Shown here: one piece after another, positions 4,957-6,639 of the stretch
Position numbering within the stretch: position 1 is the stretch's first letter
Layout of the letters: the number at the start of each line of letters is the position of its first letter
Virus genome (UHGV): UHGV-0093871
Origin: a virus
Reading direction: 5' to 3' (one strand)
DNA: 12,947 nt
Notes under the pieces: model-generated
Told to the model about the DNA's origin: nothing
Databases searched by the model: none
What the model saw: only the letters and a program-made list of their open reading frames with translations
Translations under genes and position numbers: made by a program

Positions 4957-6345
4957 TTCATCCGTAGCCATTGCGAGCTCTGCGGCCCTGATTTTTTTGT
5001 TGTATAAAGAATCGGCAGGCATTTCGACACGGACGGACACAAACTGGTCACGCGGAATGTCGACCGGATCGCCATCGCTGATACCCTGCAGCTCGTTCCT
5101 GGCGAATGCAGGCGCGCCAGGATGTGTTCGATGATAGGTTTGCACCAGCACAGAACCATCAGCGTTTACTTCGTAATCCAGCCAGATAAGCGGTTGTTTA
5201 TTGCGGTCGGTGGGGATGTCGAAACCGCCATCAATACCTCCCCAGGCCGCATCAGAGTTAAGTCCCTCACACCCTTCAACAAGATATTTTCCCCTAGCCA
5301 AGCGGGTTACAGTACAGCCTTCTGATTCGTCGTTAAGCTGGCATGAACCATCCCTGAACAACTTGATAATTGGAGAGGCAGCTTTCAACGTACCGTCTGA
5401 TGCCCGAGTCGTGTTTCCAGTGTGGTAAAGCTTCATCCAGCCAGTGTCGACACCATCAGCCATCCCCATAAATTGAATGACTTTTCCGCTAAGGATCAGG
5501 GCGGCAAAGGATTGTTGCGCAGCAGACGTGGCCCCACTGCCAACATTTCGGTCCGAGAATCTGATACCTGAACCATACATACCCGGCCCACCTGACGTGG
5601 TAGGAGAGACGTTACAGAAGCGCGTTCCATGACTTTTATCCCAGATGTCGCCGATTACTGGTAAAATTTTTGAACCTACGCCAAATGACCCCGTTATCAG
5701 CACATTTCCTTCACCCTCACCAGTATCTTTTGTTGCTGCACTTCCTAATTTGGCAATCTTATCGAATCGCGAATCATCCCCGGCCGCCACCGTTCCCGCC
5801 GCCGTTCCAACGTTCCTGGTGGCGCTGTTTCCCAAACCGAGGTTTGCGCGAGCGTCAGCTTCGGTCTTTGCCCCAGTCCCGCCCTGTGCAATAGACAGCG
5901 CAGTAGTGAGCCCTTTCAGCTCGGTGATATCGCTGTTGGACCCCTTTCTGGCAAGCGCGCCAATACTTGGAATATTAACGGAGGTTCCGTTGATGGTAAC
6001 GGTGATGGTCTGGTTTGCTGAGGTAGTGGCGAACGTCTCCCACGCGCCAATGTTCTCGTCATACTCTTTGATAAGCTGCGACATCGCCTGTGCCAGTCCG
6101 TCGACAGAGATGTTGTCGGACACCAGTATTCCATACTTCTGGCGGCTCAGCGCCGGGGAAGCAGCAGGCGTAACCGTCATTGACGTGGCGCTGTTCACAG
6201 ATGAAATCTGGAACATCTGCACCGGGTTAGACATGACGATGATCGTCTGGCCAGCGCGGACCTGGCTGGCCGGTGACGTCCAGTTTGTGCCCGTCCCGGT
6301 GGCGGTATTTCCGTTAATTGCGATAGTGCCAGTGTTATAGAGCAT
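4948..6345 (-). CDS. Tail fibre protein, expressed form: 169-aa constant N-terminal part fused to cassette A (465 aa total)
   Basis: ATG at 6345 with GGAG 5 nt upstream; the track start at 6360 is an alternative TTG. Gly/Thr-rich fibre-like sequence (MLYNTGTIAINGNTATGTGTNW...). The junction peptide ANL/GLGNSATR... spans crossover site A. Confidence 0.8.
   Translation of the reverse strand: MLYNTGTIAINGNTATGTGTNWTSPASQVRAGQTIIVMSNPVQMFQISSVNSATSMTVTPAASPALSRQKYGILVSDNISVDGLAQAMSQLIKEYDENIGAWETFATTSANQTITVTINGTSVNIPSIGALARKGSNSDITELKGLTTALSIAQGGTGAKTEADARANLGLGNSATRNVGTAAGTVAAGDDSRFDKIAKLGSAATKDTGEGEGNVLITGSFGVGSKILPVIGDIWDKSHGTRFCNVSPTTSGGPGMYGSGIRFSDRNVGSGATSAAQQSFAALILSGKVIQFMGMADGVDTGWMKLYHTGNTTRASDGTLKAASPIIKLFRDGSCQLNDESEGCTVTRLARGKYLVEGCEGLNSDAAWGGIDGGFDIPTDRNKQPLIWLDYEVNADGSVLVQTYHRTHPGAPAFARNELQGISDGDPVDIPRDQFVSVRVEMPADSLYNKKIRAAELAMATDEGE
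5771..5840. repeat. 70-bp perfect direct repeat, copy 2 (cassette-A side of crossover site A)
   Basis: Identical to 4875-4944; flanking bases differ immediately on both sides. Confidence 0.9.
5827..5852. other. gix/hix-like crossover site A inside the expressed fibre gene, core GA at 5839-5840
   Basis: gtttcccAAACC-GA-GGTTTgcgcgag. The central 12 bp AAACCGAGGTTT match the gix core as I recall it; the two half-sites form an imperfect palindrome (8/12). Confidence 0.55.
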
Positions 6346-6361
6346 AATTTCTCCAGGCAAT

Positions 6362-6384
6362 AAAAAAACCCCGCCGGAGCGAGG
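6362..6384 (-). terminator. Rho-independent terminator (minus strand) after the lipoprotein gene and directly before the fibre gene RBS
   Basis: Minus-strand RNA CCUCGC-UCCG-GCGGGG followed by UUUUUUU (A7 at 6362-6368 on plus). The fibre RBS and ATG follow within 20 nt. Confidence 0.65.
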
Positions 6385-6405
6385 TTTATGTTTAAGCGTA
6401 GTGGG

Positions 6406-6639
6406 TTATTTGCAGGTTGTTTCGGTAAATGTATTCGCACTTACCCAGCGCCAGCTGAAAGGATATCCAGCCCGGTACTGCGTCTGGTTGTTTTGTTTAC
6501 GCACACCGTAAATCTGAACCGTAGTTTCCTGACCGCCAACGATTGCAGTGCCGCTGCAAACTGGTTCCTGTTTCTCAATTACGCCAGCGCATCCTGTAAG
6601 CATGACAGCGCCTGCCATGCAGATAATCAGTTTTCTCAT
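6406..6639 (-). CDS. Small lipoprotein (77 aa), possibly a Cor-like superinfection-exclusion protein
   Basis: Signal peptide with lipobox (MRKLIICMAGAVMLTGC...). Small size and position downstream of the J-like gene match cor genes of T1/phi80/N15-type phages; this is an inference with no sequence match recalled. Confidence 0.45.
   Translation of the reverse strand: MRKLIICMAGAVMLTGCAGVIEKQEPVCSGTAIVGGQETTVQIYGVRKQNNQTQYRAGYPFSWRWVSANTFTETTCK

What the first reader, a model, noticed from the sequence alone, without database searches (positions are those of the whole stretch)
6345..6406. Intrinsic terminator placed immediately before the tail-fibre RBS
The minus-strand terminator (stem CCUCGC/GCGGGG, loop UCCG, U7; 6362-6384) ends about 8 nt before the fibre Shine-Dalgarno (GGAG) and 17 nt before the ATG at 6345. 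There is no room for a promoter between them, so fibre expression requires read-through. Inference: this fits antitermination-dependent late expression, with the upstream lipoprotein gene insulated so it can be expressed alone from its own promoter in the lysogen.
Basis: partly seen in the sequence, partly recalled or inferred. Interest (0 to 1): 0.45.

Follow-up and report, generated by a model that had tools for sequence, protein, structure and literature searches.

The report
Known terminator ending the cor moron
The hairpin is a real, strongly conserved transcription terminator that closes the phage exclusion gene cor just before the tail-fibre gene, an arrangement already annotated in close relatives and the same as phage lambda's lom–stf junction, so it is ordinary.

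Summary
On the minus strand there is a 6-bp G+C stem (6384-6379 / 6374-6369), a UCCG loop and a U7 tract (6368-6362). It lies 21 nt after the cor stop codon, 7 nt before GGAG and 17 nt before the fibre ATG at 6345. It folds at -14 kcal/mol (z = -4.2).

The hairpin is present at the same distance in 92 of 93 cor loci, from E. coli phages to Rahnella prophages. The loop varies freely and one stem pair shows a compensatory change.

The same feature is already annotated as a rho-independent terminator in phi80, HK140, mEp213 and mEp237. One phi80 record calls cor a "moron gene". Lambda has the same lom–terminator–SD–stf layout.

The intact relative HK140 has Q, PR'/qut and four terminators inside its late operon.

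There are two caveats. First, this window is a defective prophage that lacks Q, PR', the lysis genes, the head genes and half of J, so here the terminator can only end the cor transcript and the fibre gene is probably silent. Second, the hairpin also occurs in front of this fibre without cor. Mosaic joints flank it on both sides.

Novelty: already known. Interest is low.

The parts
6362..6387 (-). Intrinsic (rho-independent) terminator. Stem AAACCUCGC / GCGGGGUUU, loop UCCG, U7 tract 6368-6362.
   Evidence: Sequence read. Fold of -14 kcal/mol, z = -4.19. Covariation and conservation. Annotated as a terminator at the homologous position in phi80, mEp213 and HK140.
6406..6639 (-). cor: a 77-aa lipoprotein, the FhuA-dependent superinfection exclusion protein.
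   Evidence: PHROG 1119, E = 7e-37. 100% identical to Cor encoded on contigs of the same lengths as the HK225, mEp213, mEp237 and HK140 genomes. Annotated as Cor.
6673..6681 (-). Candidate cor promoter, extended -10 (TGGTATCGT). The phi80-annotated transcription start maps to about 6665.
   Evidence: phi80 record FN582354 annotates a -35, a -10 and a transcription start here. Alignment A2. TGnTAnnnT is found at -42 in all 60 distinct upstream sequences. Not verified experimentally here.
6702..6750 (-). Conserved intergenic motif directly after the gp23 stop codon. It holds two palindromes (TTGAT-N11-ATCAA and TTGAT-N7-ATCAA) and three GATC sites. Function unknown; presumably regulatory for cor.
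   Evidence: Three GATC sites at fixed positions in 52 of 60 distinct sequences, against about 0.37 expected. Each palindrome occurs only once in the HK140 genome.
6351..6354 (-). Shine-Dalgarno GGAG of the tail-fibre gene.
   Evidence: GGAG(A/T)AAATATG is conserved in nearly all relatives.
4948..6345 (-). stf: side tail-fibre gene, 465 aa, intact.
   Evidence: PHROG 1591, E = 9e-175; Pfam PF25670. Colinear with the HK140 tail fibre.
6751..7425 (-). gp23-like gene (N15/phi80 gp23 family), the last late-operon gene before the cor cassette.
   Evidence: PHROG 425, E = 1e-80. Annotation in phi80 and HK140.
9437..9440 (.). Deletion joint. About 3.96 kb is missing relative to HK140: the rest of L, then K, I and the N-terminal half of J.
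   Evidence: blastn of the window against HK140. ORF content.
10532..10768 (.). Approximate joint between the truncated tape-measure gene and early-left genes. The heads, lysis genes, Q, PR' and immunity region are absent.
   Evidence: window 10769-12110 = HK140 24499-22734. (DUF551, and an excisionase-like ORF at 12148-12348).

Best explanation
The hairpin is the intrinsic terminator that ends the cor transcription unit. This unit is a 'moron' cassette: its own promoter, the cor gene and a terminator. It is inserted between the last tail gene (gp23-like) and the side tail-fibre gene of a phi80/HK140/HK022-type lambdoid phage.

In a lysogen, host RNA polymerase starts at Pcor, makes the roughly 300-nt cor mRNA and stops at the U7 tract. 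The FhuA-blocking lipoprotein is therefore made while the fibre gene 17 nt downstream stays silent.

After induction of an intact phage, polymerase is modified by Q at PR'/qut and ignores this terminator and several others in the late operon. It reads through into stf, which has only a Shine-Dalgarno sequence and no promoter of its own.

In this window the prophage is defective: Q, PR', the lysis and head genes, part of the tape-measure gene, and the stretch from L to mid-J are deleted. Only the first function can still operate, and stf is most likely an unexpressed relic.

Shown here: the structure, its conservation and covariation, its fixed position, the absence of a promoter, the presence of Q/qut in an intact relative, and the deletions.

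Inferred or taken from the literature: that the hairpin actually terminates, that Q-modified polymerase reads through it, and that cor is expressed in the lysogen.
For: - Structure and statistics.
- Conservation in 92 of 93 cor loci at a fixed distance.
- Stem 99.3% paired, one compensatory pair, free loop.
- Already annotated as a terminator, and cor annotated as a 'moron gene' with a promoter and transcription start.
- Insertion character: 36 of 80 related fibre loci have neither cor nor the hairpin, and the fibre then follows the same GATC motif that precedes cor here.
- HK140 has Q, PR'/qut and four late-operon terminators.
- Lambda has the same layout, lom-hairpin-T6-SD-stf.
- Literature: definition of a moron and the Cor phenotype (PMC3594210); Q antitermination turns on lambdoid late operons, and the P22 ant moron sits 5' of the tailspike gene (PMC2629481); phi80 late genes are Q-dependent (PMC11364771).
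- Defective state of this element.
Against: - No transcript, 3'-end or reporter data were found for this site, so termination efficiency and read-through are not measured.
- The stem is short: 6 G/C-type pairs including one G-U, plus 3 A-U pairs.
- The hairpin also follows a different gene (phrog_1265) in 15 of 80 fibre loci without cor. That gene starts only about 2 nt after the preceding ORF's stop, so it has no obvious promoter of its own. The hairpin is therefore not strictly 'the cor terminator'.
- cor's G+C content (48.7%) is not clearly different from its neighbours (48-55%), so the composition hallmark of a moron is not seen.
- The cor promoter is only predicted.
Confidence: 0.85

Rival explanations
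1. The hairpin is mainly a dosage attenuator. Even Q-modified polymerase terminates partly here, so that the side tail fibre is made in lower amounts than the upstream tail proteins. This would resemble what has been proposed for the P22 ant moron in front of the tailspike gene.
For: The hairpin persists before the fibre gene even when cor is absent and the upstream gene belongs to the late operon (class b loci). [quoted passage not shown]
Against: 36 of 80 fibre loci of the same family have no hairpin at all, so it is not needed for fibre expression control. Q-modified polymerase in lambda is known (established knowledge) to read efficiently through intrinsic terminators. No quantitative data are available.
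Confidence: 0.15
2. The hairpin is a bidirectional terminator. Its main role would be to stop antisense transcription that enters from the convergent genes downstream of stf (dinI-type or att-proximal genes) before it reaches cor and the tail genes.
For: An A-run precedes the stem and a T-run follows it, so the stem can form on both strands. The phi80 record FN582354 annotates an opposite-strand terminator that overlaps this hairpin, for a putative antisense 'gene 25'. HK140 has a convergent dinI gene after stf.
Against: The plus-strand version folds at only -8.7 kcal/mol (z = -1.8, 7 of 200 shuffles as good). Its tail, UUUAUGUUUAA, is interrupted. The other phi80 record does not annotate the antisense gene.
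Confidence: 0.1
3. The conserved hairpin-plus-SD block is kept chiefly as a homologous 'linker' at which fibre (host-range) modules and exclusion genes are exchanged between phages. Its terminator activity would be secondary.
For: Mosaic joints lie on both sides of it. HK225, L046 and two Rahnella loci keep cor + hairpin + TTTTTTATTGCC, then switch to a different fibre N-terminus. Class b loci keep hairpin + SD + the same fibre, with a different upstream gene. The block is more conserved than the spacer before it.
Against: Free variation of the loop, strict stem pairing and a compensatory change point to selection on RNA structure, not on DNA identity. The T-run length and the distances are those of a terminator.
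Confidence: 0.1
4. The hairpin is a chance inverted repeat with no function.
For: The window-wide terminator scan is not enriched over shuffles: 15 hits against 11.8 +/- 3.3.
Against: z = -4.19. Present in 92 of 93 loci at a fixed position across genera, with covariation.
Confidence: 0.01

Closest known systems
The cor terminator of phages phi80, HK140, mEp213, mEp237 and HK022 (GenBank JX871397, FN582354, JQ086370, JQ182733)
   Same: It is the homologous sequence: 92-96% identity over the gp23-cor-stf region, or 82-84% for the HK022 group. The annotated phi80 terminator (21553-21575) maps exactly to window 6384-6362. The flanking genes are the same.
   Different: The window has U7 where most relatives have U6, and AAATTATG instead of AAAATATG before the fibre start. 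The window's element is a deleted prophage remnant without Q or PR'.
The phage lambda lom moron and its terminator in front of stf (orf-401)
   Same: Same position in the genome map: after J, before the side tail fibre. An accessory gene is followed by a G+C hairpin and a T6 run, and the run ends about 10 nt before the fibre ATG. The gap holds only an SD. In both cases read-through is by Q-modified polymerase (established knowledge; PMC2629481).
   Different: The gene (lom, not cor) and the hairpin sequence are unrelated, so the resemblance is one of architecture, not homology.
The HK97 gp15 moron, and the moron concept of Juhala et al. 2000
   Same: A gene with its own promoter and terminator sits inside the late operon, is present in some relatives and absent in others, and gives superinfection exclusion to the lysogen (PMC3594210).
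   Different: Different gene and position (HK97 gene 15 lies between the tail chaperone and tape-measure genes). cor does not show the deviant G+C content often cited for morons.
[quoted passage not shown]
   Same: A variable accessory region sits between the late operon and the receptor-binding protein gene, and late transcription must pass through it to reach that gene (PMC2629481).
   Different: It is multi-gene and has its own repressors (mnt, arc) and an antisense RNA. There is no sequence relation.

Membership tests
Intrinsic (rho-independent) terminator | G+C-rich stem with a short loop (3-8 nt) | tested here: met
   6 core pairs (5 G-C, 1 G-U) plus 3 A-U pairs, with a 4-nt loop. Fold -14 kcal/mol, z = -4.19.
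Intrinsic (rho-independent) terminator | A U-tract directly 3' of the stem | tested here: met
   U7 at 6368-6362. T6-T7 in 45 of 46 distinct homologous sequences.
Intrinsic (rho-independent) terminator | Lies just downstream of a stop codon, on the same strand as the gene | tested here: met
   The stem starts 21 nt after the cor TAA. The T-run starts 33-37 nt after the stop in all homologues.
Intrinsic (rho-independent) terminator | Structure maintained in evolution (covariation) | tested here: met
   99.3% of cells paired, against 35-74% in the slid controls. One pair changes C-G to A-U, and another runs U-G / C-G / U-A. 0 of 500 shuffles reach the observed score. Only one fully compensatory pair was seen, so the covariation evidence is modest.
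Intrinsic (rho-independent) terminator | Transcripts actually end at the U-tract | not testable with these tools
   No Term-seq or RNA-seq data were found for this locus.
Moron (Juhala et al. 2000) | Extra gene present in some related genomes and absent from others at the same map position | tested here: met
   Of 80 fibre loci, 29 have cor, 15 have another gene and 36 have neither cor nor the hairpin.
Moron (Juhala et al. 2000) | Own promoter upstream | tested here: inconclusive
   A conserved extended -10 (TGnTAnnnT) sits at -42 in all 60 distinct sequences and is annotated as Pcor in FN582354. The strict sigma-70 scan instead picks other weak candidates at 6750-6721 and 6783-6754. No transcription-start data.
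Moron (Juhala et al. 2000) | Own terminator downstream | tested here: met
   See the terminator rows above. However, the same hairpin also follows a non-cor gene in class b loci.
Moron (Juhala et al. 2000) | Base composition different from the neighbours | tested here: not met
   G+C content: cor 48.7%, gp23 48.1%, stf 53.3%, whole window 50.4%. Only the 111-nt upstream intergenic region is deviant, at 31.5%. This is a frequent but not obligatory feature.
Moron (Juhala et al. 2000) | Expressed from the repressed prophage | not testable with these tools
   Literature only: Cor of HK022, N15 and phi80 protects lysogens against FhuA-dependent phages (PMC3594210; PMC2885432).
Q-antiterminated lambdoid late operon | Q gene and PR'/qut site in cis, upstream of the structural genes | tested here: not met
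   Absent from the window. No ORF matches Q, and the segment that would hold it is deleted. Present in the intact relative HK140: Q at 37017-37640 and PR'/qut at 37683-37711.
Q-antiterminated lambdoid late operon | Structural genes co-oriented, with no internal promoters, and with terminators that must be read through | tested here: met
   All tail genes at 10592-4948 are on the minus strand. There are four annotated terminators in the HK140 late operon. No promoter lies before stf.
Cor superinfection-exclusion lipoprotein | Sequence membership and a lipoprotein signal peptide with a lipobox Cys | tested here: met
   PHROG 1119, E = 7e-37, full length. MRKLIICMAGAVMLTGC has the lipobox LTGC. 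Annotated as a lipoprotein in FN582354.

The most novel reading that the evidence does not exclude
The hairpin-plus-SD block would be an independently maintained 'insulator-linker' in front of the receptor-binding fibre gene, not merely the 3' end of cor.

It is kept under purifying selection even where cor is absent and the upstream gene is part of the late operon (class b loci). Mosaic joints lie on both of its sides.

On this reading it would have two roles. It would keep the fibre strictly silent in lysogens and tune its dose in lytic growth. It would also serve as the crossover point for swapping host-range and exclusion modules.

A related unexcluded idea concerns the conserved triple-GATC double palindrome upstream of cor. 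It could make Cor expression dependent on Dam methylation or on a regulator, for example phase-variable.
Probability: 0.15. Interest if true: 0.4.

Novelty: already known. Interest (0 to 1): 0.1.

Why it matters
It matters little beyond correct annotation. The site is a textbook example of how temperate phages embed a lysogen-expressed exclusion gene inside a late operon without leaking expression of structural genes.

For this window, the useful result is that the element is a decayed prophage. It has kept an intact cor cassette (promoter region, gene and terminator) but has lost the machinery that could express the fibre. That pattern suggests cor may still be useful to the host as phage or colicin M protection.

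The comparative data also show that the region just before the fibre gene is a hot spot where different accessory genes are exchanged.

Tried and rejected
1. Chance hairpin. Rejected on the fold z-score and on conservation.
2. A hidden promoter overlapping the hairpin that could start between 6361 and 6346. A relaxed scan gives at best 7 of 12 matches with a poor -10, and the strict scan finds none.
3. A known sRNA or cis-regulatory RNA at the site. The only Rfam hit is STnc100 at 20.6 bits against a gathering score of 47 (E = 0.62), which amounts to terminator-to-terminator similarity.
4. An outer helix that pairs the spacer upstream of the hairpin with the SD region, seen in the 71-nt fold. 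Rejected because the upstream spacer is the least conserved segment and the fold is barely better than shuffles (z = -2.3).
5. Terminator strictly linked to cor. Rejected because 15 of 80 fibre loci have the hairpin after a phrog_1265 gene.
6. An invertible fibre segment next to stf. No inverted repeat of 20 nt or more occurs in 2900-6400; there is only a 78-nt direct repeat.
7. FNR sites in the cor upstream motif. The half-sites are TTGAT/ATCAA, but the spacings are N7 and N11, never N4.
8. The source genome could not be identified. No complete E. coli genome covers 80% or more of the window.
9. The primary papers could not be read: the phi80 genome paper and the paper first describing the N15/phi80 cor genes are not held in the library.
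Full report
**1. What is in the sequence**

All coordinates in this section are minus-strand. The window reads, from the cor stop codon onwards:

- TAA, the cor stop codon, 6408-6406
- CCCACTACGCTTAAACAT, spacer
- AAACCTCGC, 6387-6379
- TCCG, loop, 6378-6375
- GCGGGGTTT, 6374-6366
- TTTT, which completes the U7 tract (6368-6362)
- ATTGCCT, 6361-6355
- GGAG, Shine-Dalgarno, 6354-6351
- AAATT
- ATG, 6345-6343

The 29-nt RNA folds into the expected hairpin at -14.0 kcal/mol. Dinucleotide shuffles give -4.9 +/- 2.2 kcal/mol, so z = -4.19, and 0 of 200 shuffles fold as well. 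The generic terminator scan lists it as its second-best hit. That scan as a whole is not enriched over shuffles (15 hits against 11.8 +/- 3.3), so a scan hit alone would not be evidence.

**2. What the neighbouring genes are**

- ORF 6639-6406 is Cor, the FhuA-dependent superinfection-exclusion lipoprotein (PHROG 1119, E = 7e-37). It has a lipobox, LTGC.
- ORF 6345-4948 is an intact side tail fibre (PHROG 1591, E = 9e-175; PF25670).
- Upstream on the same strand lie gp23-like and gp22-like genes, the C-terminal half of J, an N-terminal fragment of L, M, and the 3' part of the tape-measure gene.

Megablast shows the gp23-cor-stf region is 96% identical to phage HK140. It is 92-96% identical to mEp237, mEp213, mEp043 and phi80, and 82-86% identical to HK022-type phages.

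**3. The feature is already annotated**

- The phi80 record JX871397 has a 'putative rightward transcription terminator' at 21553-21575. It lies 21 nt after cor and 16 nt before the fibre ATG, which maps exactly to window 6384-6362.
- mEp213 and HK140 carry a 'rho-independent terminator' at the same place.
- The second phi80 record, FN582354, calls cor a 'moron gene'. It annotates a -35, an extended -10, a transcription start site and the terminator.

**4. Comparative test**

I collected 92 cor loci from viral and genome collections, plus the annotated phage records.

- 92 of 93 loci with enough downstream sequence (45 of 46 distinct sequences) have a hairpin of -10.3 to -16.8 kcal/mol followed by at least 5 T.
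- The T-run starts 33-37 nt after the cor stop.
- In 39 of 45 distinct sequences, exactly 16 nt separate the T-run from the next ATG.
- The arrangement holds in Rahnella prophages, where Cor is only 61% identical.

In an alignment of 24 distinct sequences, the spacer between the stop codon and the stem is the most variable segment. The loop takes at least nine forms (TCCG, CTCG, CACG, TCTG, TACG, CCCG, TCAG, TTCG, CGAGT). The six core stem pairs are 99.3% paired, against 35-74% in slid controls. One pair changes C-G to A-U in four sequences, and one runs U-G / C-G / U-A. This is the signature of selection on an RNA hairpin. Only one fully compensatory pair exists, so the covariation evidence is modest, though consistent.

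**5. Is the hairpin part of a cor insertion?**

I examined 80 loci encoding this fibre N-terminus. They fall into three classes.

- Class a, 29 loci: cor + hairpin.
- Class b, 15 loci: no cor, but the same hairpin, SD and fibre start. The hairpin follows a roughly 320-aa phrog_1265 'membrane protein' gene. By the PHROG alignment, that gene starts about 2 nt after the preceding ORF's stop.
- Class c, 36 loci: no hairpin. The fibre has a different SD and sits directly after a GATC-rich motif. In the one class c locus whose ORFs were listed (L110), a reverse-strand lipoprotein gene lies in between.

The same GATC-rich motif lies upstream of cor in the window. Relative to class c, cor plus the hairpin therefore looks like an insertion between the motif and the fibre gene, as expected for a moron.

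Class b shows that the hairpin is not exclusively cor's. The converse also occurs. HK225, L046 and two Rahnella loci keep cor + hairpin + TTTTTTATTGCC and then switch to a different fibre N-terminus. Mosaic joints thus lie on both sides of the hairpin. In every class that has it, the hairpin closes a co-directional gene that abuts the fibre. It is absent from all 36 class c loci; in L110, the neighbour upstream of the fibre is on the other strand.

**6. Promoter questions**

No acceptable sigma-70 promoter can fire between the U-tract and the ATG. The best match is 7 of 12, with a -10 lacking the A at position 2, and the strict scan finds none.

Upstream of cor, an extended -10 (TGGTATCGT, 6681-6673) is present at -42 in all 60 distinct homologous sequences. 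It coincides with the -10 annotated in FN582354. This is a prediction, not a mapped start.

**7. Read-through machinery**

HK140 is an intact close relative. It has a lambda-type Q gene, and a PR'/qut with one mismatch to lambda. Four rho-independent terminators are annotated inside its late operon: after the portal gene, after the major head gene, before the major tail gene, and after cor. The cor terminator is therefore one of several that late transcription must cross.

The literature supports the model:

- Lambdoid late operons are switched on by Q antitermination. The P22 'ant moron' just 5' of the tailspike gene is thought to influence how often late transcription reaches that gene (PMC2629481).
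- phi80 late-gene expression was shown experimentally to require Q (PMC11364771).

Phage lambda has the same layout: the lom stop codon, the hairpin AGCCCGCCGGAACCGGTGGGCT, T6, GTGGGGTGAAT, then the ATG of stf (orf-401).

**8. The state of this particular element**

blastn against HK140 gives three colinear blocks:

- window 5015-9436 = HK140 19959-15568
- window 9441-9801 = HK140 11611-11251, so about 3.96 kb is deleted (the rest of L, then K, I and the N-terminal half of J)
- window 10769-12110 = HK140 24499-22734, which are early-left genes

In prophage order, everything from within the tape-measure gene back through the head genes, lysis genes, PR', Q, replication and immunity regions is missing. 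An ISL3 transposase (1613-2935) and fibre C-terminal cassettes lie beyond stf. No ORF in the window matches Q.

In this element the read-through route does not exist. The terminator can only end the cor transcript, and stf is probably silent. Cor itself is 100% identical to the protein encoded by intact phages, and its upstream region is intact. This fits retention of a useful exclusion gene in a decaying prophage.

**9. Rivals**

- A dosage-attenuator role is possible but not needed, since 36 of 80 fibre loci lack the hairpin.
- A bidirectional-terminator role is weak. The plus-strand version folds at -8.7 kcal/mol (z = -1.8) and has an interrupted U-tract.
- A recombination-linker role fits the joints on both sides, but it does not explain the free loop and the strict pairing.
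- Chance is excluded.
- Rfam finds no known RNA family here.

**10. Verdict**

The feature is already annotated in the closest relatives and has a textbook analogue in lambda. The only additions are local: the element is defective, and the hairpin is shared between cor and non-cor contexts. Interest is low and the novelty rating is 'already known'.

Noticed in passing
window 6702-6750 (minus strand), directly after the gp23-like stop codon: A conserved intergenic motif, TTGATCG-TTTTTAG-CGATCAAT...ATTGATC-TATCC-AATCAAT. It holds two palindromes (TTGAT-N11-ATCAA and TTGAT-N7-ATCAA) and three GATC sites. The GATC sites sit at fixed positions (-109, -96, -78 from the cor ATG) in 52 of 60 distinct sequences, against about 0.37 expected. 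Each palindrome occurs only once in the HK140 genome. The motif is conserved as far as Rahnella and is also found directly upstream of the fibre gene in cor-less phages. The half-sites look like FNR half-sites, but the spacing is wrong. Function unknown.
   Followed up: partly
window 9437-9440 and about 10532-10768: Two deletion joints show that the element is a defective prophage. About 3.96 kb is missing between the N-terminus of L and mid-J. In addition, the truncated tape-measure gene is joined to early-left genes, so the heads, lysis genes, Q, PR' and immunity region are lost.
   Followed up: yes
window 4872-4949 and 5768-5845; ORFs 4184-4939 (-) and 3168-4130 (+): A 78-nt direct repeat (96% identical) encodes the shared joint GLGNSATRNVGTAAGTVAAGDDSR in stf and in a downstream promoter-less fibre C-terminal cassette. 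A third cassette, with a Peptidase_S74 chaperone domain, lies on the opposite strand. These look like alternative host-range cassettes or relics. No inverted repeat of 20 nt or more was found.
   Followed up: partly
window 583-666 (+), inside the anti-repressor ORF 552-1598: An Rfam match to sRNA-Xcc1 (RF02221) at 71 bits, above the gathering score of 53 (E = 1.4e-11).
   Followed up: no
window 1613-2935 (+): An ISL3-family transposase (PF01610, E = 4e-59) lies between the anti-repressor gene and the fibre cassettes. It probably accounts for the many E. coli records that match part of the window at 99% identity or more.
   Followed up: no
window 9722-9745 (minus strand): The top-scoring terminator-like hairpin of the whole window (GAGCCGGGCAATGAAGTCCGGCTT + TTTTCT, 9 pairs) lies inside the first codons of the L-like gene, just after the end of M. 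It is an intragenic site in the late operon.
   Followed up: no
loci L130, L106, L121, L143, L168 (class b), about 475-1440: A roughly 320-aa phrog_1265 'membrane protein' gene replaces gp23 + cor in front of the same hairpin and fibre start. It starts about 2 nt after the preceding ORF's stop, so it has no promoter of its own nearby.
   Followed up: partly
locus L110 1012-1374 (minus strand), class c: In this cor-less relative, the one class c locus examined, a reverse-strand 120-aa lipoprotein gene (MKRLFAAIFLLLAGCSS...) occupies the slot before the fibre gene. This points to a hot spot for different, probably lysogen-expressed, lipoproteins.
   Followed up: no
window 5645-6340 (+), antisense to stf: A 231-aa antisense ORF. 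The phi80 record FN582354 annotates a shorter antisense 'gene 25 moron', with its own promoter and an opposite-strand terminator that overlaps the cor hairpin. The other phi80 record does not annotate it. It is probably a composition artefact of the Gly/Ala/Thr-rich fibre gene.
   Followed up: no
window 11852-11903 and 12080-12099 (+): Three terminator-like hairpins lie after the DUF551 gene and before an excisionase-like ORF (12148-12348), in the early-left remnant. In HK140, a terminator is annotated in the corresponding early-left region.
   Followed up: no
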